A stretch of DNA of 63,734 nt, the filler included, from Kipferlia bialata (Eukaryota), in assembly GCA_003568945.1 (NCBI GenBank). It is 9 parts of 7 records of this genome, joined end to end, with 100 filler letters (N's around TTAATTAATTAA, not from the genome) between each part and the next. Parts side by side here need not be neighbours in the genome. Positions count along the whole stretch, not along the records: positions 11,154 to 22,198 come from BDIP01001304.1; 8 more parts are not named here. One strand, written 5' to 3'. The notes under the pieces are model-generated. The model made no database searches, was not told the origin of the DNA, and was given only the letters and a program-made list of their open reading frames with translations. The number at the start of each line of letters is the position of its first letter. Within the stretch, counting starts at the first letter, position 1. The position numbers were made by a program, and so were the translations under genes. Below, one piece after another: positions 3,156 to 63,669 of this stretch.

Positions 3156-3159
<4 letters not shown>

Positions 3160-6100
3160 AGCAGAGTGTCACAGCTACTGGCCAGGAGTGATGTGACGTA
3201 GGTACCAGTCTGGTCCTGGGGACAGGGCCTGTTGGAGGAAGGGAGCTCTCCACTGGGGTAAGAAGCATATGTACACAATTGAGACATAGAGGGAGAGAGA
3301 GAGAGAGAGAGAGAGAGTCTGTTGGAGGAGGGCAGATCTCCACTGGGGTAAAAAGCATATGTACACAATTGAGACATAGAGGGAGAGAGAGAGAGAGAGT
3401 GAGTGTGTGTCGTACGAGGGGAGCTCTCCGTTGGAGTCAGACAGCATACACTGAAAGAGAATAGAGAATAGTAGAAATGGAAATTGTCATCCTGACTGGA
3501 TGTAACTATTACATGTCAATCTCATGAATTCTAGTGGTCTATACAAGCACATCAAATAATATTTATTATGAATATATTGATATTGATATAGTATATACAT
3601 ATACTCACTTGTCATTCAGGATGATCTCCCTGAGCTGTCTGCCGGACTTGGTCAGCTCCTAGGATGTTAATAAGGGTGTAGAGAGAGAGAGAGAGAGATG
3701 AGAGTACGTGGGAAATGGAGAAATAGAGAGAGAGAGAGAATATTACTATATTGTTGATTATAGACTATCGTATAGGAATGCACAGGATATATAGAATACT
3801 TAGAATATACAATATACTACTATACCTCGACCATGTTGTTGATGATCATCTCTGACAGGCCATTGCCCCTAAGATCGAGGGACTGGACTAAGGGTGAGTG
3901 TCAATACATACACATGTACACATGTATACATACATACATATATACACATATCCATACCATTGGGCATGTGCTTCAGAAGTCTGGCCAGTCTAGACCCAGT
4001 GTGGGACAGGTCATGGCCGGCTGGGGTTAGTAATACATACAATATGTATGTATTGATGTACATAGTACGATCGTATACACCACATAACACATACCGAGGT
4101 CCACTGAGGTGACGTGCTTGAAGCTCTTCCCCTCTGCCTCTCCCGCTCCCTCAGTTGGCTCACACAGAGAGGACACGTACTTGTACATGGACACAAAGCC
4201 AGTTGATCCTGAGTATTAGATAGAAATGAATATACATATATATACATAGAGAGAGAGAGAGAGAGAGAGAGGACACGTACTTGTACATGGAGACAAAGCC
4301 AGTGGAGCCTGATAATTAAATAGATATTATACATTAGACTTACAATTACACATACATAAGTACCTAGCTTGTGGTCTGTGAATGACAGGGTGGACTATAC
4401 ACACACTACTGTATACATCCTTATACATATGTATATACAGGTGCATATAAATGTAAGTACCTAGCTTGTTGTCTGTGCCTGTGAATGACAGTGTGGACTG
4501 GGAGGGGTCAGAGGCACAGGAGTCAACGATAGACTGGGGTGAGTGACCAATTTATATACACATATTCTATTATATATATGTAGAACCTTCCACCATGCCT
4601 CTGTGTGCTGTGCTACCATACCATGCATAAATATTGCATATATAGCATACACCCACTTACATATGCATACACATACCATATGTAACTAATACTATACAGT
4701 ATGTGTAGTACCTTCCACCATGCCTCTGTGTGCTCTGTCTTGGGCAGAGAGGGTACTCTGGACACAGCCATGGACTCCCTGGGTGTTAGAGGGTATGTAT
4801 TCACTAGATAATATATTCATAGATATACCATAATACCCTATTACATACTAGTTATCAACCAACAGAAACAGACACGGACTGACCCTGACTGGCAAAGATA
4901 TCCAACATAGAACACACATACATATTGACCAGCGTACCTCAGAGTGTGGAATATTGGCATTGGTATGTCTGTGACATCTGTAAAACTAACGTATAATAAG
5001 GAGACTCGCGTACATATCTTATGCAAACTCGCGTACCTCAGTGTGCCCAGGCTTGGTACTGGTCTGTCTGTGACATCTGTGGAGAGGGAGGAGAGGGCGG
5101 GGGAGACACCGCCTTATGGTAAGATAAAGGTGGGAGAGGGGGGGAGAGAGAGGGCAGGGGAGACACCGCCTATTGATCAGAGAAAGAAGGGGGTGGGGGG
5201 GCAGAGCAGAAGAGAACAAGAAGTGATACTGCAACACCCATAGTAACTACTGGAAATACTGGGCAATAATAATATTATAAGTAAACAATATTTGCACCTA
5301 TAACATTCCGGTACCCCCCCTCCCTCTGCAGGATGGATGCCCAGGTGGAGATGCGTATAGTGCATAGCATACATATAGATGATAGTACATAATTATATAT
5401 ATATCAATAAATAATATACCTATAACGTTCCGGTACCCCTCCTCCCTCTGTAGGATGGATGCCCAGGTGGAGCTCATCTTGGCAGAGATGTACTGGGGGT
5501 CAATAGAAACATGACTATATTCATATACTAATGGTGGAGCAAAAGAGAACATATGCAAGTTATACAATTATTGTAGTGAATTAACAGGTTGGGCTCATCT
5601 TGGCAGCGATGTACTGGGAGGTCAATAAATACCATTCAATACAATACAGTAGAAGAAGAGATCTCCCTCCCCCCCATCCCCACTTTCTCTATCTATATAC
5701 ACTATACCTTCTCTTGTCAGATCCTCTGTCTCTCTCTCTCTAAATATATTTGTATATCCATATATACACACACACATATATATATATCGATATAATACCT
5801 TCTCTATGACACCCTCTAGAGTGTGTACCAGCCTATCCACGCTGGGTCTGTCACAGGGGGTGCGCTGGAGTGAGTATACATGTAAATTAACGATCTATTA
5901 TACATATACATTATAATATATATGTGTTTTTGCATGAATAAATGATTAGGATACTGGGGGTGCGCTGGAGTGAGTGATTATATATTATGTACTAGTGACT
6001 ATACCTGCACTGCAGTGACTATACCTGCACTGTAGTGACTATACCTGCACTGCAGTGACGTATATGTGTAGGTATATATATACATACATATATACGGTTA

Positions 6101-6726
6101 TTGAAAAAGTATAAAGAGTAGAAATATATCAAATATAGTACGGTAAATGATCACTTGTACAGGACACATAACCACATACTTACCTGCAATATACAGTTGA
6201 TAAGGCGAGTATATATATTGAATATATAGTAGTATATATATAGTATATATCAAGAGTAGTATATATATAGTATATATCAAATATAGACTGAATATATAAC
6301 AGTGTATACTTACCTGCAGCATAGAGTTGATCAGGTCAGGTAGGCCTGGGATGTCGGTATCCTCGCTGGAGACGGTGCTAATGGTGAGATTTGAGAAGAG
6401 AAGAAATTATTAGAATGAGAAGAATGAAAAGAAACTCAGGGTGTCCAGGGAAAGAGTCCTTTCTCTAGTTATGCTATGACTTATCGCAATACAGAATCAT
6501 ATAATTTAACCAACCAACTGCATGACGACCAGTCCCTCGACAGTAATATGTATTCTACTAATCATATACTAATTCTTTTATGCATTCAGTATATATACAT
6601 ATACGTACTTGAACTGGGCGTCCTCGGCCACCAGGCCATGGGTGAAGGAGAAGTGGTTGAAGTATCCCCCTAAGGTTGGTATTCTCTCCATAACTGCTAT
6701 ATATAGACGCGGAAGTAGAAAGAGAA

Positions 6727-6765
<39 letters not shown>

Positions 6766-7085
6766 GTATTTTGTTGATGAGTCTCTCCTAAGTTGAGTAT
6801 TCTCTCCAAAACCATCAAGATAAACAGAGAGAGAGAGAGAGCTTATGATTACCTAGATGAGGTCGGACACGATACATACCCATATTAATATACAATAGGT
6901 ACTAGATATAGTACATATACACATTATTTAGTGAATTATTGTACCTGGTGAGTTGCGTCTGATGAGGTCGGACAGGACCCAGTGCCTGGAGAGCATCTGC
7001 GGTGAAAAAAGGGTGTAGAGGCAGAGAGAAAGAAAAGAGAAAGACCCAGTGTCAGGAGCATCCCAGATGATACAAGGGTGTAGAG

Positions 7086-7123
<38 letters not shown>

Positions 7124-10100
7124 TGTACCTCGCTGAAGATCAAGCCGAGTGACCAGACATCTGCAGACTGGTCATACTCCCCAATCAGTCTGGAGTAAGG
7201 AAACAATTATACAATAATACACATAAGTATGCTGGCCCCTGTACTGTTGGCAATGTATAAACGTTACTCACATGTATACACATATATACATATATAAATA
7301 ATGTATATTGCAATAACACAATAATACACAGTATATCGTATTATAACACAAAAGTAGTATGTAGATAATAATAATATGGAATGAATGGTAAATGGAAAGT
7401 GTACCTTGCCCCTGCACTGTTGTTCCAAGGTCCATAATATATATGAAAATTGAAAGTATATAGAAACACACGCACATATATATATAAATACAATTAGTAA
7501 TACACTATATGTATGTCATACCTAGCCCCTGCACTGTTGGTACCAAGGTCCACTCCGTTCTCAAAGCACTGACGTTAATGGGATAATGTCGTATAACAAA
7601 AGGGTATATACAACAGTGTATTCTATATTAAAGCACCATGTATTCATTTCTACTGTTCAGGTGCTCTGTACTGGATGCTACCTTACATAATGGCAGAGGA
7701 TATAATACATACACTCTTTCATTGTATACTATATTATATATATGAATATACATCCATACCTCTGGTGCCCTGTACATAATGTTGCCCACTCCCAGGGAGT
7801 TGGTCTGCGGGTTCTAATGGTTAGAGAGAGAGAGAGAGAGAGAGANNNNNNNNNNNNNNNNNNNNNNNNNNNNNNNNNNNNNNNNNNNNNNNNNNNNNNN
7901 NNNNNNNNNNNNNNNNNNNNNNNNNNNNNNNNNNNNNNNNNNNNNNNNNNNNNNNNNNNNNNNNNNNNNNNNNNNNNNNNNNNNNNNNNNNNNNNNNNNN
8001 NNNNNNNNNNNNNNNNNNNNNNNNNNNNNNNNNNNNNNNNNNNNNNNNNNNNNNNNNNNNNNNNNNNNNNNNNNNNNNNNNNNNNNNNNNNNNNNNNNNN
8101 NNNNNNNNNNNNNNNNNNNNNNNNNNNNNNNNNNNNNNNNNNNNNNNNNNNNNNNNNNNNNNNNNNNNNNNNNNNNNNNNNNNNNNNNNNNNNNNNNNNN
8201 NNNNNNNNNNNNNNNNNNNNNNNNNNNNNNNNNNNNNNNNNNNNNNNNNNNNNNNNNNNNNNNNNNNNNNNNNNNNNNNNNNNNNNNNNNNNNNNNNNNN
8301 NNNNNNNNNNNNNNNNNNNNNNNNNNNNNNNNNNNNNNNNNNNNNNNNNNNNNNNNNNNNNNNNNNNNNNNNNNNNNNNNNNNNNNNNNNNNNNNNNNNN
8401 NNNNNNNNNNNNNNNNNNNNNNNNNNNNNNNNNNNNNNNNNNNNNNNNNNNNNNNNNNNNNNNNNNNNNNNNNNNNNNNNNNNNNNNNNNNNNNNNNNNN
8501 NNNNNNNNNNNNNNNNNNNNNNNNNNNNNNNNNNNNNNNNNNNNNNNNNNNNNNNNNNNNNNNNNNNNNNNNNNNNNNNNNNNNNNNNNNNNNNNNNNNN
8601 NNNNNNNNNNNNNNNNNNNNNNNNNNNNNNNNNNNNNNNNNNNNNNNNNNNNNNNNNNNNNNNNNNNNNNNNNNNNNNNNNNNNNNNNNNNNNNNNNNNN
8701 NNNNNNNNNNNNNNNNNNNNNNNNNNNNNNNNNNNNNNNNNNNNNNNNNNNNNNNNNNNNNNNNNNNNNNNNNNNNNNNNNNNNNAGAGAGAGGGAGTTG
8801 GTCTGTGCCCAGGGAGTTGGTCTGTGGGTTCTAGGGGTTAAAGAGAGAGAAAGAGAGAGCCTGAGAGAAATGACATACACCTCGCGGTTGCCCAAATACC
8901 CACTATAGTAAAAGTAAAAATATACATTGTATACATAGCATTAAATACCTCCTCGCTCATGAGCTTGCTCATATATACATTATCTCCATATGTATATGTA
9001 AATATGTATTGCATTTAGTATAGTGTAAACATATCATATATATATTGTATATACCTCTTCGCTCATGAGCTTGCTCAGTAATTGATGGATAATTCAGAAT
9101 CTTCAGATGTCTAATGTAACTATAAATATATATAAATGAAAATTAATATTGTTAAGGTGTATATACCTCCTCACTCATGAGCTTGCTCAGTCCAAAGTCC
9201 ACAATCTTGACACACACGTATGAGCCTGACATGTCTATCATGATGTTCTCGGGCTGGGGTGAGACGATATCAAAATAATAATTCAATATAGAATTTACTC
9301 TCTCCCTGTGGATCATATCGGCCTTACCATGGGTATCTATACTCTCACTCTATATATCCATGTAACCATAATCGTACATATACATACACATACCTTGATG
9401 TCCCTGTGGATCACCTTGGCCTTGGCCATGGCAGACAGGGCAAGGAGGAGCTTGGATTAAGGGTGTAGAGGGAGAGAGAGGATCTGAGGGGAAACGGGAT
9501 GGTGTACAGTAATAGTATATGTGTATCAATACCTGGTGCATGATGGTCAGCATGTGAGGAAGAGGGTTCTCCTTGGACCTGGTGTTAAAAGGGTATAGAG
9601 AGAGAGAGAGAGAAAGAGATGTGGATATCGGCATATATATCGGTATGTATGTACTGACGTAGAAGTGAGAGAACAGGCGACACAATTACGAAACGAGAGA
9701 GAGAGAATACTCACCTCATGAGGTGGACCCCTATGTGCTCCTGGAGGTGCTTGCCTGGCGTGAGCAATACACTAATAGTAGTATATATATATATATATAT
9801 TAGTGTTTCAATTGTATAAATATGTCATTACAAATATATACATACCCATGCCACAACGCAAAGACCACTACTCCACCAGATCCATGACGATGACCATCTG
9901 TCAACAAATATACCAAACTTCACATATATACACACAAAGATATCTGAAATAAGGTAGGTATCATTAGTATATTAGTATTACAGTACACAATATTGTATAC
10001 ATATAAATACCTTCCACCAGCTCCATGATGATGACCATCTGGTTGGCCTCCTCTGTGTTGCGGAAGTGACGCAGGTACCTAGGGTGAGTAGAGGCGATAT

Positions 10101-10993
10101 TTAGAGAGAGAGAGAGATGGAGAGAGAGAGGGATGTTCCCGCAGTGACGTAGATAGGGGAAGATCACAGACAAGAAAGCCTCACATTCCTGTAAACCTCA
10201 TTTCACACATATACTTCAGTACATAACTACTAAATACGAGGTGTCAACCCATTCCGCATATACTCATCTACGTACTGCCCCACTGCATGCATGTACTGCA
10301 ATATATCACATGTACTCACTTGACTACGTGGGGTGTCTCTGTGTCCCTGAGGAGAATGGCAGCCCTGACATTAAGGGTGTAGAGGGAGAGAGAGAGAGAG
10401 AGATATTAGGGGAGAAGACAAATAGGGAAAGAAGGGACAGAATGGAACAACCTTGATACTAAGGGCGGGTGTAGAAAGAAAAAGAGAGAGAGAGAGAGAG
10501 AGCCTGGATACAAGCAGTACCTGATCTCTGTCTTCAGGTCCTTCTGCCTCTGGACGTAGGCAGCCCCTGACATCAAGGGTGTAGAGGCAGAGAGGGAGAA
10601 AGAGAGAAAGAGACAGATGACACTCAGTGCCGGAGGAGAGATGAACATCTCTCTCTCTCTCTCTCTACATATATATATATACATACCAGCTGCAGTCTTC
10701 ATAAATGCCTCATAGGCGTCCTCTGAGAGCTCATCCTCAGCCACCTAGGGAGTCAGAAAGACATAAGTGAGATTAAAGGGGTAGATGGAGAGAGAGAGAG
10801 AGAAAGAGAGCTCGTCCGCAGCCACCTAGAGAGTCAGATAGACATATGTGACTCTGTACTGACCAAAGATGCATTGTAGGCATATATAAATCAATATGGC
10901 AAGTATGATCCGTACCCAGTTGGGTACTGCAGGTGTGCCGCATATCCACTGGAACTTGGCAGCCACTCTGCGTCCAGTGGCAATCTCTGTGGC
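3156..10993 (-). CDS. Ser/Thr protein kinase, multi-exon, 5'-partial, spans an N gap
   Basis: Stitched GT-AG exons give RRVAAK (subdomain II, ~10960), MVIIMELVEG, IHRDIK|PEN (9395/9253), KIVDFGLSK (~9195), GNIMYRAPE (~7765), YDQSADVWSLGLIFSE (~7130-7190), DLINSMLQ and DRPS. The last exon ends LASSCDTLL*, TAG at 3156-3158. Confidence 0.9.
5994..6059. repeat. 20-bp tandem repeat (AGTGACTATACCTGCACTGY) x3 in a kinase intron
   Basis: Directly visible. Each unit contains GCAG|GTATAG on the minus strand, like the donor of the exon at ~6313. Confidence 0.85.
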
Positions 10994-11153: not shown

Positions 11154-11173
11154 ATCTATATACATATATATAC

Positions 11174-12642
11174 CTGTCTCAGGTGCTGGGCTGACACGGT
11201 GCAGATCTCCTTCCCTGAGGTCAGAAGGAGAGAGACATAGTGGGGAAATACTGCATATATACTGTATATGGTATAGTAGTATTGATTTGATAGTAGTATA
11301 GATGTATTCCTACCTGGTAACACCGTGTCCCCGTCGTCAGAGAGGACGAATACTATCTACATAGTATACTCTTTAGTATATACTTATATATATAGTGAGG
11401 AATCCCCACTTGGAAACACCGTGTCCCCGTCATCGCATATATACTGTATATGGTATAGTAGTATAGATTTGAAAGTATAGTATAGTAGTATAGTAGTATA
11501 TATGTATTCCTACCTGGTAACACCGTATCCCCGTCGTCGCATATGGCTGGGCTGGGGTTAGATCATGCAGATAGGAGTTTGATGAGTACATACACACTCA
11601 TATCTATATATAGCGGGTGGGTCATATATTACTGGGAAAAGTGCAGAGCCAAAAAAGAGAGACTTATGAATGACCTAGTATCTGTTTCTGCTAGACCATG
11701 TGTCGTTCTATATATATACAAAGGCTCCTTAGAGTAGACCAACCACACTGTTAGGATGATATATATATAGATATATATAAATGATATATATATATACATA
11801 TATTTATACCTTAGATTAGACCACCCACACTGCATGAATAGACATACGGACTCATAAACACTAGTATCTCTCAGAGTATATATATCTCGCCATATATATA
11901 TGTATATATATACACACACACACATATATATATATATACCTTAGATTAGACCACCCACACTGCATGAATGCACATACGGACTCATACACATAGGTATCTC
12001 TCAGAGTATATATATATCTCGCCATATACACACACATATATATGTATACCTCAGATTAGACCACCCACACTGCATGGTGCACACAGGGCAGGCACTCTTC
12101 AGAGTCAGCGAGATACTATCCTGCGGTTTGTATCATAATTTTTAAGTGTCTCTCACAATAATCACATATTGCTATACATCATCATTCGACCCTCTACGGC
12201 GTCCACAACCTCCCCCCCTCTCTGTCTCTACACACACACACACACACACATACATGTACATGGCTAACAAACCTCTTCCTCTCCCCCTTCTGCTGCATAT
12301 AACACCTCCACCTCCACCTCTCTCCATATATTGTTTTATATATACATATATAAATGTATATATATATACATATATGGACATCTAACCTCCTCTTCCCCTC
12401 CCTCAGTAGCGTTGAACACCTCCACCTCTACTTCTACCTCTCTCTCTCTCCATATACATACATACATATACGTATTATGAATATCTACCTCTTCCTCCCC
12501 TCCCTCTGTAGCGTTGAACACTTCGACCCCTCCCTCTCCCTCTCTCTCTCTATATATACATATGACTCACTTACCTCCTCTTCCCCACCCTCTGTGGCAT
12601 TGAACACCTCCACTTCCACCTCCACCTCCTGACTCAGCTTCA

Positions 12643-12680
<38 letters not shown>

Positions 12681-14107
12681 AATATATATTTGTATACATA
12701 CATATATATACATATATCAGTATATATATGTAGTATACCTCCTCTTCCCCTCCCTCTGTAGCATTGAACACCTCCACCTCCACCTCCACCTCTTGACTCA
12801 ACTTCATCAGGGCACCGAGAGCAACGCCTATGGCCCTATTGTTAGAATACAGTACTTATGATATTTATATATAGTACATATAGTATGTGCATTATATTGA
12901 CTCAGCTTCATCTGGGCACCGAGAGCAACGCCTATGGCCCTACCGTAAGGTAATATATGTACATTTCACATATATATATATATAATATGTTAAGCTTCAC
13001 CAGGGATCTGAGAGCAACGCCAATGGCCCTGGTGGTTAGCAAATATATACCTTCATATAATAGTGTATATATCGGATATGTATATATCGGGTTATGCTTC
13101 ATAAGGGGACTGAGAGCAACACCTATATGACTCTCTCTCTCTTCCTCACTCTCCCTATACCTTGGTATGTCGTTGGATGAGGCAGACTGAGCTAGAAACA
13201 GCCAATAGAATACTATCTGTCTCAGAGGTATATATATATATATATATGTGTGTGTTAACAGACATACTTGGGTATGTCGTTGGACGAGTCTGACTGGGCC
13301 AGGAACATGTAATAGAAAACTCTCTCACACATATATATATATATATATGTTAACAGACATACTTGGGTATATCATTAGAGGAGTCTGACTGGGCCAGGAA
13401 CATGCGGATGTCCGACATAGGCATCTCGGGCATCTTGCACTGTGGGAACTGGTTGGTCTTGGGGTTAGAGAATACTCTACACATAACACTAGTATATATA
13501 TAGATGTATATATATATATATATGCGGATGTCGGACAGAGGCAGGGAGGGCATCTTGCATTGGGGGAACTGATTGGTCTGAAGATCAGAAGTCATAATAG
13601 ATATATGTAGAATATATACATATATATGATATATATATATATATATATATACATGTCAGATAGAGGCATCTCGGGCATCTTGAGAATGAGTGTATATATG
13701 TGTGTATAGATTCATAACCAAACATTAACATATACATACAATACCTGCATGAGGAAGAATGGCACTTCCTGCACTCACAGATGTATACAGACATATTAAT
13801 ATATATATATATATATCTATATCTATACATATACAATACCTGCATCAGTGAGCAAGGTACTTCCTGCATGACGGTGTCATTGGCAGTCTTGACCATGACC
13901 CTTGGGTTACATGTCCAGATACATACAGATATACCTATATACCAATATATATGTCAATATTACTATGGGTGTCATTGGCAGTCTTGACCATGACCCTGGG
14001 CTTAGATATACAGATATATATATAATACTTCATGCACTTGGGTATCATTAGATGGAAAGGGACCATACCTCAGCACTCTCTGCGCTTCATCCATATATGT
14101 ATACATG

Positions 14108-14138
<31 letters not shown>

Positions 14139-14534
14139 ATATATAAATATCTATGCAGGTATTGTATCTCCTACCTCAGCACTGTCTGCTGGGTGACAGT
14201 CTCTGTCCCAAGCATGATCTGGGAGTGAGTGCATATAATACCTACACACATATATATTGGAATGTTTATGAGATAGATAGAGAGAGATAGTCCTATTCTA
14301 TACAGATAATGATACGCATTGTATACCTCTGTGACCGTCCCTTTACCAGACTGCAGTGCTGCCAGGAGGGTGTGCACATTCACCTTGACTCCAATGTAGT
14401 TGCCAGTCCTGGACCTAGGGTGAATATATATAATTGTCAATAGTACTATATACAATATTATTGCATAAAAGAATTGTATTCATTAGTGGACCTTGACTCC
14501 AATGTAGTTGCCTGTCCTAGACCTAAAGTGAGTA

Positions 14535-14572
<38 letters not shown>

Positions 14573-14940
14573 TATGCCTAATATATCCAAATATACGTAT
14601 TAACGAATGGACTTTGACTCCAATGGAGTTGCCAGTCCTCGACCCAGAGTGAATAGTATGTATATGTTGACAATCATAGATATATATACATGAATCTCTT
14701 AACCACAAAGTACTATTGCATATATATACTCTACCTGACTTCCATCATTGAATAGTATATATAAGTATAAGGAAACTCGGTATACTGGTGGAAACAAGTT
14801 GTATACAACTACAGTGTTATTTTTCTCCCTTACACCATTGACCAGAATTAATAATCGAATATACGTAAACTATACACAACACTACAAATAATCAATGGTA
14901 CTAGGCCTAGTAGCTGACTTCCATCATTGAGAACAGGTAG
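11174..14940 (-). CDS. HUS1: HUS1-like 9-1-1 checkpoint clamp subunit, internal part, multi-exon
   Basis: Stitched exons: LFSMMEVRSRTGNYIGVKVNVHTLLAALQSG...VMQEVPCSLMQTNQFPQCKMPEMPMSDIRMFL...ALMKLSQEVEVEV...SISLTLKS..TMQCGWSNL...ICTVSAQHLRQ. These are collinear with recalled HUS1 blocks (VTHDIPIKV..LQEPVVPDPDVSIYL; KMKNISNHLVIEA; LNLKIETELVCVTTHFKDL; EVHIDIRKLLQ). Not database-verified. Confidence 0.7.
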
Positions 14941-15326
14941 AATGAATAGTGTCTATATATATAAACACATATGTAGTATTATGTATAGAAATATAGTATT
15001 ATAGTATTANNNNNNNNNNNNNNNNNNNNNNNNNNNNNNNNNNNNNNNNNNNNNNNNNNNNNNNNNNNNNNNNNNNNNNNNNNNNNNNNNNNNNNNNNNN
15101 NNNNNNNNNNNNNNNNNNNNNNNNNNNNNNNNNNNNNNNNNNNNNNNNNNNNNNNNNNNNNNNNNNNNNNNNNNNNNNNNNNNNNNNNNNNNNNNNNNNN
15201 NNNNNNNNNNNNNNNNNNNNNNNNNNNNNNNNNNNNNNNNNNNNNNNNNNNNNNNNNNNNNNNNNNNNNNNNNNNNNNNNNNNNNNNNNNNNNNNNNNNN
15301 NNNNNNNNNNNNNNNNNNNNNNNNNN

Positions 15327-15371
<45 letters not shown>

Positions 15372-15379
<8 letters not shown>

Positions 15380-16389
15380 ACAGGAGAGAACATAGTTCAT
15401 GATCTGGTATTAGGGGTGAATGGAGAGAGAGAGAAGTGACTCATATTACATAATATACATATATATAACTTAATACTCAAATAGAATACATATAGTAATA
15501 TTCAATCATATACAATACATACCATCAACAATGCTAGGAATCTCTTTGGCCACCTTGGTCATCTATAAATACTATATATACCAATGTACTAATTGCATAT
15601 AAATGCAATATATACCAATATACTAATTGCATATAAATATACACATACCCTGCAGAGAAATGTATAAAACATTACTATATAATATTATGACAATACTATA
15701 CTTACCATTAGAAGAGCGAGGAATCTCTTTGGCTTTGATTTGGCCACCTTGGCCATATATACATTAATATTATATGTAAATAGTGAAATGAACACTCATA
15801 TATATATAGTAACTCACCATCAGAAGAGCTAAGAACCTCTTTGGCTTAGACTTTGCCACCTTGGTGAGAACAAGACCCGCAATCTGCTCATCGACCTGGG
15901 GTTAGTCCAATACAATAATAATAATGACTACAATAATGAATTACAAAGACACTGTATCAATATACAATGGCGTCATTAGAATATCAGCAAAGCACCTTGT
16001 ACTTAGCCATGGCGACACTGAGGCTGAACCCAGAATACATATATATATATATATACATAAATGAATACATGTACTAATCACTATTCTAATGATGCCATTG
16101 GATTATGAACCTTGTACTTGGCCATGGCGACACTGAGGCTGAACCCAGTATATAAATATATATATACAAATATACATGTATCACTATTCCAATGATGTCA
16201 TTAGAATAGTAGCAAAGCACCTTGTACTTGGCCATGGCGACACTGAGGCTGAAACCGGCCAGAACCAGAAGGACAGTCCCACTCATCATGCCAGAAATGA
16301 TCTGACAATAAGGGTCAAGAGGGAGAGAGAGAGATAGAGAGAGAGCCACTCATCATGCCAGAAATGATCTGAAAATAAGGGTCTAGAAG

Positions 16390-16428
<39 letters not shown>

Positions 16429-17059
16429 GATTAGTCCCACTCATCATGCCAGAAATGATCTGAAAAAATAAGGGGCTAGAGAGAGCGAGAGAGAGAAAGA
16501 GAAAGAGGGAGAGAGAGAGGTCCTATACCTCGCTTGCTGCGTCACCAGGGGCAAGAACCTCGTCGGTGTCGGAGTCCTGACATTAGGGGGCTAGAGAGAG
16601 AGAGTGAGAGGGAATCCGAGAGCGTATACTGTACGAATATTTACCGGTGAGTAAGTAGGACACATATATATTTATATATATATTACATTGTAATTATTGT
16701 AGAGTAGCGGTTAAAAGTGTACCGTTAGGACGTATGACACGCATACCACAAAGGTGATATATATACATATATATATATATATACATATATATATGTACTT
16801 CTAATGAATAGACAAACAGAAAGTAGTATATCCTAACCTTTAGGACGTATGGGACGCATACTACGAATGGTATCACTAGTGCAGTATATATGCATGAATA
16901 CCATAATACTGATATAAAGTATATACACTGTATATACCTTAAGCACGTAGGATACGCATACCACGAATGGTATGACTAGGGCTGTGACATGGAGGGGCAG
17001 GGCCTCGGCACCCCAGAGGATAGAGGCACCTAGGACAATACCTAGACAGCGCCTATGCT

Positions 17060-17094
<35 letters not shown>

Positions 17095-18443
17095 CCTCGG
17101 CACCCCAGAGGATAGAGGCACCAAGCACTATACCAAGGCAGCGCCTATGATAAAAAAAGAGAAAAAGAAAAACACCAAGTCTTGACAGCGCCTCTCTTTA
17201 CAGTATATACACATACATATATACTACCATATTGACTATAGAGCACCTAGCTGTAGCCTCCATGGCTGTCACAAACACAGAGCAGCTGACACCCACAATG
17301 AGGGCAAGGATTATGAAGATGACGTCCTGAGAATAAGGGGGTAGGGAGAGAGAGAGAGAGAGAGAGATACACCCACAATGAGGGCAAGGATCATGAAGAT
17401 GAAATCCTGATATTAAGGGGCTAGGGGGAGAGAGGGAGAGAGAGAGAGAGAGAGTAAATACCTTCAGTGTGACCGAGAAGACCTTGTGCTCCTTCTCTCT
17501 CTGCTCCTCCTTGTCGGAAGAGAGATCCAGCTGGGCCTTGGCCTGCAATAAGGGTCTAGGAGGAGAGAATAAAGGGTGTAGAGGGAGAGAGAGAGGTTCC
17601 TAACCTGGTGAGCCCCCCAGTCCACGAGGTATGGGTTCTTCTTCCAAGAGAGAGAGGACTCTACAGCAGACAGAAGACCTGAAATAAGGGTGTAGAGGGA
17701 GAGAGAGAGAGAGGACTCTACAGCAGACAGAATGCCTGGAATAAGGGTGTAGAGGGGGGGAGAGAGAGAGGGAGTGGGAGCAGAAGAAGTGTATATTGGA
17801 CTAGCGTTGTACACAGGATATACCCACCTGCCCTCTGCTCCTCCCCCTGCTCTCCCATCCTGGTGCAGTATATATACTATATACATAGTATATCTACACA
17901 TATTACATATATATTACGTATATATATATATACATGTATATACCTGCCCTCTGCTCCTCCCCCTGCTCTCCCATCCTGGTGCAGTATGCGCTGAAGGCAT
18001 CGCCTGGTATTAGTATCAGAATATATATACATTATTATATAATACCATAATATATATGTATATATATACATTATTATATAATACATTAATATCCCCCATC
18101 CTTGTGCAGTATGCACTGAAGGCATCGCCTGGGGTCAGATAATATAATAATTATAGTTACATTTCACAATAATAAATATGAATTACAATAATTGTATAAT
18201 AGTAATGATACTGGTGCAGTATACGCTGAAGGCGTCGCCTAGTGTCAGTGGCAGTATGCAGTATACATACATATGAATCAGACTGAATATTGTAGCTACT
18301 GTCCTTGTCAGCTACAAAATTGTAACCATAATCATGTAACTGATACCTAGCTCGGTGGTCAGCTCCTCGATAGTACTTGTATTTTTAGTATATATGTACT
18401 AATCACTAGTCTATTGCAAAGTATATTCAATTATATATATATC

Positions 18444-18475
<32 letters not shown>

Positions 18476-20049
18476 TATCATTATACCTAGCTCGGTGGTC
18501 AGCTCCTCAAGGCGGGAGGTGTCAGAGAAGGGCTGGTCGCGCATCTGGTATTAAGGGGCTAGAGAGAGAGAGAGAGAGAGAGAGAGAAGGGCTGGTCACG
18601 CATCTGGGATTAAGGGGCTAGGGAGAGAGAGACAGAGAGAGAGTAGGTACCTCCATGTGCAGGTTGCTGTCCAGCAGGTGACTGTGCCTGTACAATATAA
18701 CACTACTCCATATACAATATGAATACATGTATGTGTACAATACATATATATATATATATACGTGTATATAGATATATATGTCTATATACCTCCATGTGCA
18801 GGTTGCTGTCCAGCAGGTGGCTCTGCCTGTACAATATATAATACTACTCCATATACAATATGCATACTCATGTATCTATGTGTACAATATACATATATAT
18901 ATATATGTGTGTGTGTGTGTATATACATATGTATATATATACTATACTGCATTATTACCTCCATGTGCAGGTTGCTGTCCAGCAGGTGGCTGTGCAAAGA
19001 TATATATATATATGTATATATATGATAATACTCACAAATATACATAATAGTTAGGGGGCTAGAGAGAGAGAAAGAGAGAGTATAATACCTCCATGTGCAG
19101 GTTGCTGTCCAGGAGGTGACTGTGCCTGTACAATTTATAACACTACTCCATATACTATATGAATACATGTATGTGTACAATACATATATATATGTGTGTA
19201 TATACATATATATGTATATATGTACCTCCATGTGCAGGTTGCTGTCCAGCAGGTGGCTGTGCCAGTACAATATACAATACTACTCCATATACTATATGAA
19301 TACCCATGTATGTGGACAATATATAAACAATAAACATACATATATACTAAATATACATGTATATACCTCCATGTGCAGGTTGCTGTCCAGCAGGTGACTG
19401 TGCAGGTACCATATATATGTGTATATGATAATACTCACAAGTATACATAATAGTTAGGGGGCTAGAGAGAGAGAAAGAGAGAGTATATATACCTCCATGT
19501 GCAGGTTGCTGTCCAGCAGGTGACTGTGCATGCGACGGTCGGCCTTCTTGCAGATCTTGCTAAAGGTGAGAATAGAATAGATATAGAGATACGCATATAT
19601 GCAAATAGTTCGGCCTTCTTGCAGAGCTTGCTGAGTGTTAACACACATATATATACATAAATATCTATATGTCTATATGTACATACCGCAGGGCAGTGAG
19701 GTTGAGCTCTGCGTGGTCGATGAGCTCAAAGAGGTGGACCATCTCATCAAACATCCTGGGGGTAAATAAGGGTGTAGAGAAAGAGAGAGAGAGAGAGAGA
19801 GAAGATGAGGCACTCTCTTAAACACTGATAGTGTAGCAATATATATATTCACATACCTCTTCTTGAGTACTGACTCGTATGCATAATACACACATATATA
19901 TATACTATAGATAATACATATGATATATAGGGTGTATATATGTGTATATACCTCTTCTTAAGGACAGACTCGTATGCCTCTGTGTCCACATTGTCACCAG
20001 AGGATAGACGGGTGATGAGAGAGGCCACACGCTCCTCTGGATATAAGGG

Positions 20050-20083
<34 letters not shown>

Positions 20084-20834
20084 CTGCCAGCCTCAGGTGC
20101 TCGTGGTGGAACAGGTTGCAGGCATCAACCTCAGACTGGAGCAGAGTAACAAACCTTTCATAAGAAGGCCAGGTATGTATGTATAATATATAATACACAC
20201 AAATAATATATTATATGTGCAGACCATATAAACAACACATATATAAATACATATACATATCATAATGTATTGCATCATAATGTATTGCATCATATATATA
20301 TATATAGTATATACCTGGCGATGTTTGCGGCACTCCTCTCCTGCGCCAATCTCTTCTTCCTGGCCTAGAAGTGAATAAGGGGTGTAGAAGGAGAGAGTAA
20401 AAGGGTGTAGAAGGAGAAAGAAGTAAGTGATAGTGTTGGCCTAGAAGCGAATAGAGGGTGATGAAGAAGAGAAGCAATCAAACACTGTTTACTAATACAT
20501 ATGAAGTGATTAGTACTAGAATATACGATAGGGTTATTACTCGATTAAAATAGCTATCCATATACATAAATATACCTGCAGGTGCATGTGTGCATTGGAC
20601 AGAGCACGGGGTCTGCCTCTGGACCTAGTGGTAAAAGGGTGTAGAGGGAGAGAGATATAGAAATATAACACTGTATATGCGGTAAACGGGTGAAGAAGAG
20701 TAATAGGGGTGAAGAGGAGACATGGATATAGTGAACATGGAAACATACACATTCATATATTTACAATAGAATAAATACACATAAGTATACTACAAAGCGT
20801 TTACCATACCTGTCTGAGACCTCACTGGCCTCAC

Positions 20835-20876
<42 letters not shown>

Positions 20877-22063
20877 CCTCTCTGACACCTCACTGGCCTC
20901 ACGGTCCACACCGGGCACTGGGGTGAGATGAGTATATATAATGAATATTGATATATATACATGGAGATAGAGAGATAGGGAGAGAGAGAGAGAGGGAGAG
21001 ACCTCACGGTCCACACGAGGCTCTGGGGTAAGAGAATACCAATTTATATATCGAGAGAGAAGAACAGAAAACAAAGTAGTCATCATTCAATGTCATATGG
21101 ATAGTAGGGATATGGATATCGTCCAACTAGTGCTTACATACCCTCCAGTGTGTCTGTCACGACCACAGGGTCAGGAAGGGCAGACTCCTCTGGATATAAG
21201 GGTCTAGAGAGAGAGAGAGAGAGAGAGAGATGTCAGGGAGGGGACACTCCTATTGATATAAGGGTCTAGAGAGAGAGAGGGGGGGGGGCATTGAGGGAAG
21301 CGATAGGGATGGATATATGAGGAGAGGGGGATGTGAAGAAATGGGACCGGTACACAATTCATTCACATATATATATTTACCTGTGACAGCCCCCATATAC
21401 ATATAAATATATGTATATACATACTTATACTTGAATGTATATATAACTATCAATATGTATATACCACCTATACCTGTGACAGCCCTCTCAGCTATGGTTG
21501 CCAGCTCAGACAGGGGGATGTGGGGTGTATCAGCCTCAGACACCTCAGGAGAGGCAAGGGTGGACTCTGAGAATAAGGGTGTAGAGGGAGAGAGAGAGAG
21601 AGAGAGATGTGGGGGGTATCAGCCTCAGAGACCTCGGGAGAGGCAAGAGTAGACTCTGAGAATAAGGAGGATAGAGAGTGAGAGAGAGAGAGAGAGACAG
21701 AGATTGAAGCCAAATAGTGTGTAGAGGGTGGGAGGAGAGAAAGAAAGATAGGGAGGGAGACACCTAGGGGGCGACACGGGTACGACTCTAAGATGATACA
21801 GTTGTGGGGGGGGGGGTAGGAAGTGAAAGGGAGACCTTGGGAGAATACAAAGTACGCATCAGTATGATATTATATATATGTGCATATGTATACATATGTT
21901 TACCTAGTCCTCCATTGCACACATCCTCCTGGGTGATACAACACTCATATACTCATATGTATATATATATACCTACACTACAATATATATAGAGTATATA
22001 CACATACATACCTAGTCCTCCGTTGCACACATCCTGCTGGGTGATACCGGCCTTGATGATGTC
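15372..22063 (-). CDS. SPX-domain SLC13/DASS phosphate transporter (Pho87/Pho90/Pho91-like), partial at both ends
   Basis: SPX motifs RFVTLLQSEVDACNLF and AELNLTALRKICKKADR (lysine cluster). TM blocks RCLGIVLGASILWGAEALPLHVTALVIPFVV, MMSGTVLLVLAGFSLSVAMAKYKV and RFLALLMIMNYVLSCVIS match Pho87-family LLWATEAIPLFVTSLLIP / LLLGGFTIAAALSKY. Confidence 0.88.
18649..19560 (-). repeat. Interspaced array of ~38-bp exon-3'-end copies (7 units including the true exon)
   Basis: ACCTCCATGTGCAGGTTGCTGTCCAGCAGGTGRCT at 18649, 18788, 18957, 19087, 19224, 19365 and 19491. Only the last extends into the full exon KICKKADRRMHSHLLDSNLHME. Confidence 0.92.
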
Positions 22064-22086
22064 CTGGTATTAAGGGTGTAGACAGA

Positions 22087-22118
<32 letters not shown>

Positions 22119-22149
22119 TTCCACATATGTACCCATACACACAGATTGA

Positions 22150-22185
<36 letters not shown>

Positions 22186-22745
22186 AAAAAAATAAGGGNN
22201 NNNNNNNNNNNNNNNNNNNNNNNNNNNNNNNNNNNNNNNNNNTTAATTAATTAANNNNNNNNNNNNNNNNNNNNNNNNNNNNNNNNNNNNNNNNNNNNCG
22301 TCGTAGGACACTGCCAGTACCCTCCCAGGCCCTATCCCAATAGTCCAGCAAATACGTGGATACACATCATCAACACGACTGACTGGGTGGCACTTGTATA
22401 GCTGAGGCAACATAGGGGGCTTTGTGCGTAAGTTTGAAGAGGTATGTGTGTTGGTGGCCTCTCAGACCCTGAGGGTTACTGGTTAGCCAAGGGTCAGGCG
22501 TGCTGTCTAGTGGTTCAAACTGAGGGTTTCACAATGTTTTCAGATTGATGACTGTAGATTGCCCTCATATGATTACTATAGATGTCGCATTGTATGTTAA
22601 GGGAGTGACCTGCTGACACAGTGGACTGTCAAGAACCGGATATCATAGAGGCAGGGGCAATGATAGCATTTCTCTCTATTGAATACAAGATATCGATTCA
22701 GTAGTTCAGGAACTACATGTATCGTCTATTGAACAAGGAATCCAT

Positions 22746-60321: not shown

Positions 60322-62078
60322 CTACTCTATCATGTCTATCCCCTTGTGGTGCTGGTGTCTGAGTGTGTCCCCCAGGGCCCTGGCCTGACTGGCCCAGCCC
60401 CGAAGCTTGGCGGCCATGGCGAGGACCTGGGAATGAGAATGTATCAATATATATATCACGATGTAGTATATATAGACAATATATATATACTGATACTGGC
60501 CCACCCTCTCAGCTTGGCAGCCATGGCGAGGACCTAGGGGGTTAGTCTATAGTGTATGAATAATATTGTATATGAATATTATAGATGGAGAGACAACATC
60601 CCCGAAGCTTGGCGGCCATGGCGAGGACCTGGGGATGAGATTGTATCAATATATATATCACGATGTAAATAGACAATAGTCCCTCAGCTTGGCGGCCATG
60701 GCGAGGACCTACGTGGTTAGTCTATAGTGTATAAGAACACATATAGACAATGATACGAACATTGATACTTATAGTCTACACACCTGCTCCCTGGACATGG
60801 GGCTTGATGGATGCGAAACCAAGTACACATATATACATCATAAGTGTATGTATCATATGCATGTATGTACATACACACATCCCCTACCTGCTCCCTGGAC
60901 ATTACTCTTGGCTCTATGGATGTGACAGCCAGGGTCATGGCCACACCATCGATCATACCCTCAATCAGACCAAGCTCGAGGGCCCTGGGGGGTCAGTATG
61001 GTATATGTCAGAATATTATATCTCAGTATGGTATATCTCAGTATAGAAAATCTCTAGTATGGTATGTGACAGTATATGTATATCCCCTACCTCAGCACCG
61101 TGTGCACTGGCACTGTCTCAGACAGGGGCACACACCCCCTGTCAGAGGGGGGGAGGGCCTGGGGTAAGAAGGACACAAAGGTATCAATATATACATTTAG
61201 TATACATATACTCTTCACTTGTATACATATATATATATATAACACCCTCTGTCGGAGGGGGGAGGGTCTGGGGGTCAGGGTGCATATCCATTGATCTTCT
61301 CCATATATACATGTATAATGATACATCCAGTGTGGATAAGAGTGACAGCACAGCCATCCACTCACACTCCCTCCATACATATATGTATATATATATATGT
61401 ATGTATATGTGTTATCTTAGTACCTCCAGTGTGGACAGCAGGGACAGGACAGCCAGCTTCTCCGTGACTGCAGGTGATGCACACACTGCATCCCCATACA
61501 GTGCTGTGATGATGGGCACTGCCTGGGAGATGGAGGCAGAGTCCCCCTGGGTCAGCAGCGTGCACAGCTGGAGGGTCTGAGGCATGGCCTGGGGTCAATA
61601 TACATTAATACATATGGATATACATACACACATATATATATGTATATAAAGATAGATGAGGGGGGTGGGGGGGGCACAGCTCGAGGGTCTGAGGCATGGC
61701 CTGGGGTTAGTATGTATATACAAATATAAACATACACATATATATATATGTACATAAGAAGATAGAATGAGGGGGGGGGGGGGGCAGAGATCGAGTATCT
61801 CTGCGGTATGGCCTCGGGTCGGAATGAATAGTATTTTAGATATATATATAGGGAGAGAGAGAGACACGTGGCCTGAGGGTGGGAGTGAGTATATATACGC
61901 CATTGGTACTACACTCCTGAGTCCTAGTGTGAGCAGTGCCTGTATGCGTACAGATGCATGAGTCTCTCTTATATATACATGTATGCATATAGACCCTACA
62001 CATAATACATCCTCCCAATCCATACCTCTGTGAGGAGTGCCTGTATGGGTCCTTGGTATATATGTATATATACACTTA

Positions 62079-62110
<32 letters not shown>

Positions 62111-63669
62111 CATAACCTATGGGTAACACACATATACTTCTGTATACCTCTGTGAGGAGTGCCTGGATGGGTGGTGGGTAGAGAGAGAGGAACGACACTC
62201 TCTTGGGCATGCACAGTGCACACTGCAGGGCATAGGCAGACAGACGCACGATGCACTGCTTGTCAAAGGCAGTCACGCTCTGCCTATAGGTGAGGTATGG
62301 AGAGAGATAGAAGTGAGCAAAAAGATATATATCCATGGGAGTATAGGTAGGTGGGTGAATAGATGGTGAGTATGTATCGCAGAACGACCGGTAATACATG
62401 ACATTACCTATCTGTGAATGTAGCTGTGAACACCCCATACAGGTTGAGGTACTGGCTGTACAGACCCGGCACGCCCTGGGGTGAGGACATATATACAAAG
62501 TGTAATAGAATATGTGTCACTGATATACACAAACACCCCTATATACCTGGTGCTACATGAGTGCATCCATGTGTCCATTCTCAGTATGATATACATACAT
62601 ATATTATGAACACAATCCTCTCTCCCTATATATATACACCCACCTGATGTACCATCAGTGCCCCCATGTGACCCATCCTCAGGATGTCACTGTCCAGCTT
62701 GGGGACAATGTCCTGGGGTTGGAGTGGTATATAGTATATATGTACATACACACATATATATATATACATTGACAATAGATATATATGCTGAGTGTGTCAC
62801 TGTCCAGCTTAGGGAGAATGTCCTGGGGGGTCAGAGAGAGACAGACACATGTGTCGATACACATAGTCTCCTATATCTACCCACCTGCTTCATGAGCTCT
62901 GCCGTCTGTGCTGGCAATGTGACGTGTGTCTCCAGTATATATTACATGTATAATTAAAATACATACATATACCATATATGCCATACCTGCTTCATGAGCT
63001 CTGCTGTCTGTGCCGCCAGTGCCACGTGTGTCTCGAGTGATGCCTCTGTGGACATGGCACTGAACAGGAGGGACAGGGCCTGCTTGCCCCACTTGACAAG
63101 GGGGTCAGTCTCGGGCATGGCCTCTAAAAGTTAGAGTAAAAAGAGGTATGGATATATTAATAGAGAGAGAGAGAGAGAGAAACACTTGACAAGGGGGTCG
63201 GTCTCGGGCATGGCCTCTGAATATGAGATTAAGAATGTGAGAGGGGAAGAGAGAGAGAAGGAGGGGGGGGGGGAGTACTATACACATACCCACTATGGCC
63301 TTGACCTCGTCTGGCACAGTACAGACCCCTGTGACTGGGACCTCGGATATGTACGAGGTGCAGAGGTAGTACACAACGTGCACAGCCTGGGAGTAAGGCC
63401 AGAACGTATGGAGTACAGTACTCACTATAGATGGGTGATTGTACAGGTGGTACACAATATGCTACGTCTGTGTGGATACAATACAATATCCAGCGTGCAG
63501 TGAATAGCACATGTATAATGTAGTTGTAGAATATATAGTATACCATACCTCATGGGGTGGCAGGTACTCGAGGTATATGCTGCATGTGTTGAACAGGGGT
63601 GTTAGGACAGCTGGGTCACACAGGGTGGAGAACACAGACAGCAGCTCGTGGCTGAACTGGTACCACAGC
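60322..63669 (-). CDS. PSMD13: 26S proteasome lid subunit RPN9/PSMD13, multi-exon, 5'-partial
   Basis: N-terminal LWYQFSHELL and C-terminal PCI ALELGLIEGMIDGV..VTSIEPRVMSREQ|VLAMAAKLRGW match RPN9 LWHQLT and KALSVGLVKGSIDEV..VQPRVLDLQQI..M..RL..W. TAG at 60322. Confidence 0.85.

What the first reader, a model, noticed from the sequence alone, without database searches (positions are those of the whole stretch)
13159..13580. One HUS1 exon flanked by three allele-like recoded echoes
True exon end: ATG TTC CTG GCC CAG TCA GAC TCC TCT AAT GAT ATA CCC AA|GT (13363-13403). The near echo (13268-13308) has 4 changes, all synonymous (TCG TCC AAC GAC). The far echo (13161-13201) reads CTG TTT CTA GCT CAG TCT GCC TCA TCC AAC GAC ATA CCA AG|GT: 9 synonymous and 3 replacement codons, no indels. 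The upstream acceptor echo (~13523-13578) reads TNQFPQCKMPSLPLSDIR versus TNQFPQCKMPEMPMSDIR, with 4 synonymous changes. This is the signature of purifying selection on protein.
Basis: seen in the sequence. Interest (0 to 1): 0.8.

Follow-up and report, generated by a model that had tools for sequence, protein, structure and literature searches.

The report
Introns stacked with retired exon halves
In this intron-rich protist most introns carry roughly 105-base units holding half-copies of the neighbouring exon that differ from it mainly at silent positions, likely fragments of other working alleles left behind by recombination, so one genome may record the diversity of its whole population.

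Summary
The HUS1 exon (13363-13457, minus; Kipferlia bialata by the protein name) has four echoes, not three. Across the window 123 echoes lie beside 59 of 99 curated exons, against 4 hits in 832 control pairings. They sit in units of about 105 nt and keep GT (60 of 67) or AG (46 of 49). A spliced contig skips the HUS1 echoes it can be tested on; exon and echoes have like DNA depth (327, 434, 414), against separate haplotypes. Divergence at 0-fold versus 4-fold sites is 0.18 (0.13-0.24); planted neutral echoes give 0.46-0.55. The echoes' own branches are also silent-biased, yet echoes carry frameshifts and lack a second splice site. So they were constrained until recently and look idle now. 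Best reading (0.55): retired fragments of divergent working alleles, moved beside the exon by offset recombination in a very diverse, recombining species. A toy simulation matched the numbers only in that regime. No second isolate was found, so the diversity is untested. My paper searches found no description.

The parts
13363..13457 (-). True HUS1 exon (95 nt, AG...GT)
   Evidence: In spliced contig of run X2 with 0 other letters; in P0001; inside or next to the Pfam Hus1 stretch
13268..13309 (-). Near donor echo, 3' part of the exon, GT kept, unit 95 nt, 4 silent changes
   Evidence: DNA contig depth 434 (table 5c)
13161..13201 (-). Far donor echo, GT kept, 202 nt from the exon end, 9 silent and 3 replacement codons
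   Evidence: DNA contig 12914-13217 depth 414
13522..13577 (-). Near acceptor echo, 5' part of the exon, AG kept, unit 120 nt, 4 silent and 3 replacement codons
13653..13682 (-).
13310..13362 (-). Spacer 1 (true donor to near echo); alignable with spacer 2 along its length
13202..13267 (-). Spacer 2 (near echo to far echo)
12897..13126 (-). Three acceptor echoes of the next HUS1 exon (12897-12939, 12995-13028, 13097-13126) in the same 527-nt intron
   Evidence: on DNA contigs
11174..14414 (-). HUS1 gene, 8 exons present, 20 echoes; 5' exons missing at the N gap
15818..22063 (-). SPX-domain transporter gene, 28 echoes on 18 curated exons, six of them copies of one donor end (18651-19404)
30254..40339 (-). 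Unidentified 26-exon gene model with 42 echoes
   Evidence: model from open frame and GT-AG only, no RNA check
3157..10744 (-). Kinase-like gene models (named by eye), 24 exons, 16 echoes
60322..63669 (-). Unidentified 10-exon gene model with 14 echoes

Best explanation
The echoes are half-exon copies in tandem units of about 105 nt that are spliced out with the intron, and they are likely retired fragments of other working alleles of the same gene, placed beside the exon by offset recombination in a species predicted to be extremely diverse at silent sites. Shown: the units, their window-wide spread, kept GT/AG, skipping in the main HUS1 contig, silent-biased differences on both exon and echo branches, decay by frameshifts. 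Inferred: (1) alleles differing by about 25% at silent sites coexist and recombine, pairing mainly in exons because introns barely align; (2) repair or exchange starting in an exon copies one half plus some intron and rejoins out of register, leaving one intact exon and a spare half; (3) the spare half then decays at the neutral rate but is refreshed or deleted quickly, after only about 2-5% change; (4) the spliceosome skips it because it has only one splice site.
For: 0-fold 115/2564 versus 4-fold 170/685, ratio 0.18, exon bootstrap 0.13-0.24; 0.095 after strict trimming; planted neutral echoes 0.46-0.55. In 27 triplets, private silent/replacement changes: exon 23/2, near echo 20/17, far echo 33/18 on 193 silent and 638 replacement sites; echo-echo pN/pS 0.15. 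pN stays 0.035-0.055 while pS runs from 0 to over 0.5, and there is no gradient from the splice end. Replacements are more conservative than random (p=0.012). GT/AG loss of 6-10% fits the 0-fold rate, while intron flanks fall near background. Toy simulation: only high diversity plus recombination plus fast turnover gave 0.18-0.29, with pS 0.25 and pN 0.046 at best; the other five settings gave 0.44-0.79. Precedent: silent diversity 0.20 and exon-biased crossovers in Schizophyllum (abstracts, PMC4576712, PMC4209137); metamonads lack NHEJ and fornicates Rad51A (PMC8516963, section 8).
Against: Diversity itself is unmeasured: no second isolate found. Run X1 shows no other letters in the 3.9 kb laid, so this culture looks homozygous or haploid here. 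The needed silent diversity (about 0.25) exceeds the 0.20 reported for Schizophyllum, and 13 of 101 echoes have pS of 0.5 or more, the far HUS1 echo being near saturation, which is deep for alleles. Upstream and downstream echoes of one exon do not share divergence (rho 0.14, n=19). No microsatellite signal at junctions (18 of 115 against 27% background). The simulation is a toy with tuned parameters. Only the HUS1 and transporter models have outside support.
Confidence: 0.55

Rival explanations
1. The donors were not standing alleles but diverged sister lineages or homeologs: past hybridisation or polyploidy, then offset exchange and loss of the second copy, left their exon halves in the introns.
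For: Heavy tail of divergence (13 of 101 echoes at pS 0.5 or more; a three-base codon change E>S); no heterozygous letters seen now. All selection statistics fit equally.
Against: pS is spread continuously from 0 (18 of 101 at zero, quartiles 0.11, 0.20, 0.38), not peaked as for one event. No second HUS1 copy was laid at 85% likeness.
Confidence: 0.2
2. Echoes are selected in place as a reservoir: they convert or collapse back into the exon often enough that protein-breaking changes in them are purged.
For: Kept GT/AG; echo acceptors near true strength, 19 of 49 as strong as their own exon's.
Against: No stronger constraint near the splice end (2.2, 2.1, 2.5%). Simulations with back-transfer but low diversity or no recombination gave 0.44-0.79.
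Confidence: 0.1
3. Echoes are translated through alternative or unusual splicing (for example an upstream half joined to a downstream half), so selection acts on them directly.
For: Codon-level constraint; upstream and downstream halves meet mid-exon more than simple nulls give (9 of 19 within 8 nt, p 0.01-0.03). Contigs drop rare forms, and the near echo lay in a skipped repeat.
Against: 0 of 72 donor echoes have a true-strength acceptor; GT at acceptor-echo ends 16 of 50 against 28% background; unit length mod 3 flat; 1 of 40 units open; 13 of 15 gapped echoes frame-shifted. Meeting is not supported after allowing for exon length (residual rho -0.35, n=16).
Confidence: 0.07
4. Assembly chimera: haplotypes or strains of a mixed culture were strung together at microsatellites.
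For: Introns are rich in (TA)n; the assembly is fragmented; X1 may be the source data; no listed contig joins the focal exon directly to its near echo.
Against: Depths alike for exon, near and far echo (327, 434, 414; eight listed contigs 310-414). Single contigs run through exon plus echo at 11179-11753, 13841-14092 and 14156-14526 with 0 other letters. Echoes are half-exons in gene order, and only one spliced version was laid.
Confidence: 0.05
5. Plain same-chromatid tandem duplications that have decayed neutrally since birth.
For: Tight unit size, median 105 nt; frameshifts; spacers 1 and 2 align.
Against: Predicts a ratio near 0.5 (0.46-0.55), observed 0.18; predicts copied flanks, yet 21 of 25 low-divergence donor echoes have flanks no better than foreign ones.
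Confidence: 0.03

Closest known systems
Internal gene duplication and intron gain by tandem genomic duplication (PMC3443670, passages)
   Same: Short tandem duplications inside genes that involve splice signals.
   Different: There an exonic duplicate makes a new intron. Here duplicates straddle existing splice sites, lengthen introns by about 105 nt each, occur in 58 of 90 introns and carry a constraint signature.
Tandem exon duplication with mutually exclusive splicing (Dscam type; recalled)
   Same: Exon variants side by side that differ mostly at silent sites.
   Different: Copies here are halves (median 47% of the exon) with one splice site and are not in the main contig.
Hyperdiverse Schizophyllum commune (PMC4576712, PMC4209137, abstracts)
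   Same: Silent diversity 0.20 and crossovers that favour exons: the regime my model needs.
   Different: Those abstracts report no intronic half-exon relics; diversity in Kipferlia is unmeasured.
Silent gene-conversion cassettes (Borrelia vlsE, chicken Ig pseudogenes; recalled)
   Same: Unexpressed partial copies that keep reading-frame features.
   Different: Those serve single variable loci; echoes sit in checkpoint, transporter and kinase-like genes alike and show frameshift decay.

Membership tests
Hus1 (9-1-1 clamp subunit) | Pfam PF04005 above the curated cut-off | tested here: met
   28.3 bits against 27, residues 439-545 of P0001; a narrow margin
Hus1 (9-1-1 clamp subunit) | PCNA-like fold | not tested
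   no fold run
Mutually exclusive tandem exons | Each copy has acceptor and donor | tested here: not met
   0 of 72 donor echoes with acceptor; GT at 16 of 50 acceptor-echo ends, background 28%
Mutually exclusive tandem exons | Copies appear in mRNA | tested here: inconclusive
   One spliced contig holds the true exons; rare forms and the near echo not testable
Intron gain by tandem genomic duplication | Duplicated exonic sites define a new intron | tested here: not met
   HUS1 echoes lie inside introns bounded by the exons' own GT-AG sites; the first origin of these introns was not tested
Neutral internal duplication | 0-fold/4-fold divergence near 0.5 | tested here: not met
   0.18 against 0.46-0.55
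Microsatellite slippage duplication | Junctions abut dinucleotide repeats | tested here: not met
   18 of 115 against 27% background; trimmed ends may be inexact
Hyperdiverse recombining species | Silent diversity of 0.1 or more among isolates | not testable with these tools
   No second isolate found
Collapsed or chimeric haplotypes | Variants at fractional depth on separate contigs | tested here: not met
   Alike depths and joint contigs; the direct join of focal exon and near echo is inferred
Recursive or nested splicing | Intermediates that use internal splice sites | not testable with these tools
   Only contigs are held; raw reads needed

The most novel reading that the evidence does not exclude
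Kipferlia renews its exons by swapping in halves from divergent alleles and parks the old halves in the introns, so its introns are an ordered fossil record of allele replacement, intron length is set by this process, and silent diversity at or above the eukaryote record can be read from one assembly.
Probability: 0.35. Interest if true: 0.88.

Novelty: new variant of a known kind. Interest (0 to 1): 0.72.

Why it matters
It would be an undescribed way of building introns, bearing on whether this lineage's many introns and their lengths are ancestral. It would give indirect evidence of recombination and extreme diversity in a free-living fornicate, a group reported to lack NHEJ and Rad51A. It offers many natural decoy splice sites of near-true strength that are skipped, a test of exon definition in a reduced spliceosome. 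It also misleads annotation: P0001 appears to use an echo as an exon.

Tried and rejected
No whole genome is held, so all statistics rest on the window. Second isolate: no relative of P0001 in metagenome contigs (161 pattern matches, none confirmed); the V-ATPase c query gave 80 listed loci of 28-54% identity, none close; none of 208 shorter candidates scored against the Hus1 part. No listed holder is on record as RNA; X2 is a guess, though its contig joins at GT-AG. A second read lay on the 26-exon gene returned nothing, so that model and wider heterozygosity stay unchecked. The self-trained gene finder was too permissive; I chose 99 exons by hand from it and checked frame and ends, leaving out exons with unclear ends and genes not curated. 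Rejected: serial ladder with error-prone recopying (near echoes have 20 private silent changes); one-event split of an old exon (meeting is weak, divergence of the halves uncorrelated); microsatellite junctions; RIP-like bias (GC>AT 169 against AT>GC 120). Earlier findings: nothing.

Full report
Setting. The window is a string of eukaryote scaffolds joined by spacers; the finding lies on 11154-22198, with an N gap at 15010-15326. A 41-residue query from the exon's frame found one protein, P0001, named by NCBI 'checkpoint protein Hus1/Mec3, partial [Kipferlia bialata]'. Pfam gives Hus1 at residues 439-545 (28.3 bits, cut-off 27), plus SPX and transporter domains. Its exons match those I chose for the HUS1 and transporter genes. 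No genome is held.

Observation. The codon counts are exact: near donor echo 4 silent; far donor echo 9 silent and 3 replacements; acceptor echo 4 silent and 3 replacements. A fourth echo lies at 13653-13682. Together 17 silent and 8 replacement changes, pN/pS 0.11, p=3e-4 against 0.5. The value 0.5 is what a copy gives if it is neutral from birth while the exon changes only at silent sites.

Is it real DNA? Two runs hold the stretch. In X1 the eight listed contigs have depth 310-414; the true exon has 327, the far echo 414, the near-echo contig 434; no other letters are listed. Contigs 11179-11753, 13841-14092 and 14156-14526 each run through exon and echo. No listed piece joins the focal exon directly to its near echo, because 13218-13357 was skipped as a repeat; that join is inferred. 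X1 may be the source data, so it is not independent, but separate haplotypes would show fractional depth.

Is it spliced out? One contig of X2 (1177 nt; RNA is a guess) runs through eight exons, with GT-AG joints where ends are given and 0 other letters on 13362-13458. One exon was laid by the tool on its echo with 2 other letters and 52 letters between, which fits the true exon 12739-12835 in a skipped region (inference). The other 2 of 3 laid records were under 90% alike. Rare forms cannot be excluded from contigs.

How wide? I curated 99 exons in 9 models, all open, with GT-AG ends except three terminal exons. Local alignment of each exon to its two flanking introns found 123 echoes on 59 exons; foreign introns gave 4 hits in 832 trials (a stricter first pass gave 113 and 1 of 520). 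58 of 90 introns hold at least one; median intron length rises from 146 nt with none to 218, 307 and 483 with one, two and three; the nearest unit has median 105 nt. Donor echoes reach the exon end in 67 of 72 cases and keep GT in 60; acceptor echoes reach the start in 49 of 51 and keep AG in 46. Echoes cover about half the exon; 1 of 41 leaves under 12 nt uncovered against 8.2 expected. Two compact genes had 0 hits in 26 exon-intron pairs.

Selection. 248 silent and 142 replacement differences; 0-fold 115 of 2564, 4-fold 170 of 685, ratio 0.18, bootstrap 0.13-0.24, p about 1e-17 against 0.5; pN/pS without HUS1 is 0.19. Strict trimming (115 of 123 kept) gives 0.095. Neutral echoes planted in the same flanks give 0.46-0.55, so the method does not cause it. 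In 27 triplets the echoes' private changes are 20 silent/17 replacement (near) and 33/18 (far) on 193 and 638 sites, that is 0.26 and 0.17 where neutrality predicts 1; the exon has 23/2. Replacements are conservative (p=0.012). pN is flat across pS classes and along the echo.

Idle now. 15 of 123 echoes are gapped, 13 out of frame, some at ragged ends; 3 stops in 1326 codons. Unit length mod 3 is flat and 1 of 40 donor units reads through. No donor echo of 72 has a true-strength acceptor at its start. Yet 71% of echo acceptors score above the tenth percentile of true ones, against 3% of other intronic AGs, so skipping likely rests on pairing of sites across short exons (inference).

Mechanism. 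The data say: long history under protein constraint, short history as neutral DNA (2-5% at 0-fold sites and at GT/AG), flanks mostly unrelated even when the exon part is close (21 of 25 donors, 14 of 20 acceptors). That is expected if echoes come from other working versions of the exon. In a toy forward model with transfer both ways, low diversity gave 0.44-0.63, high diversity without recombination 0.62-0.79, and high diversity with recombination 0.18-0.29, reaching pS 0.25 and pN 0.046 (nine settings). At the locus, near and far echo share three silent states against the exon, while the near echo shares its donor flank with the exon, and the two spacers align: the pattern of an out-of-register exchange. 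How units first form is not shown. Break repair that needs exon homology on one side would explain half-exon size, but so would selection against near-whole copies. A microsatellite junction signal was absent. Halves meet mid-exon more than simple nulls predict (p 0.01-0.03) but not after allowing for exon length.

Against. No second isolate was found. The culture shows no heterozygous letters in the stretch laid, although the species' genome paper infers diploidy from k-mers. The needed diversity is above the 0.20 of Schizophyllum, and some echoes are near saturation, which keeps hybrid or homeolog donors alive at 0.2. The lay on the 26-exon gene gave no data.

Literature. PMC5874029: parts 1-2 of 6 and term passages; 124,912 introns, no 'duplicat' in the main text; supplements not opened. 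PMC6679479, PMC13685798, PMC3443670: passages. PMC8516963: passages and section 8: metamonads lack NHEJ, fornicates lack Rad51A. PMC4209137, PMC4576712: abstracts. Searches (listings only; 15 of 33, 20 of 28, 0, 40 of 56, 0, 12 of 22, 5 of 6) showed no description of such echoes; subscription papers are not covered. Dscam, vlsE and chicken Ig comparisons are recalled.

Verdict. Real, window-wide and apparently undescribed; a new variant of internal tandem duplication whose copies bear the mark of past function. Interest 0.72.

Noticed in passing
window 14914-22063: P0001 joins an SPX-domain transporter to Hus1 across the N gap, probably a mis-annotation. The spliced contig leaves the window's sequence beyond 14940, so 14914-14940 looks like a donor echo and the true exon is missing.
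   Followed up: partly
window 18651-19404: Six donor echoes of one exon, 0-3 changes each, with two alternating spacer types: a higher-order array in a 948-nt intron.
   Followed up: partly
window 43588-46749: Two compact genes with introns of 53-159 nt have no echoes (0 of 26 pairs); echo load may track expression or region, untested.
   Followed up: partly
curated acceptors, whole window: A branch-point-like motif sits 7-10 nt before AG, followed by a C run, recalling the fused branch point and acceptor of related metamonads.
   Followed up: no
window 49256-50359: 13-nt tandem repeat on both sides of a 1000-N gap.
   Followed up: no
window 47430-48033: V-ATPase c-like gene (named by eye), minus strand, long exon, no echoes seen.
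   Followed up: partly
window 12387-12625: Several donor echoes of the acidic HUS1 exon show expansion and contraction of a 6-nt unit coding Val-Glu.
   Followed up: no
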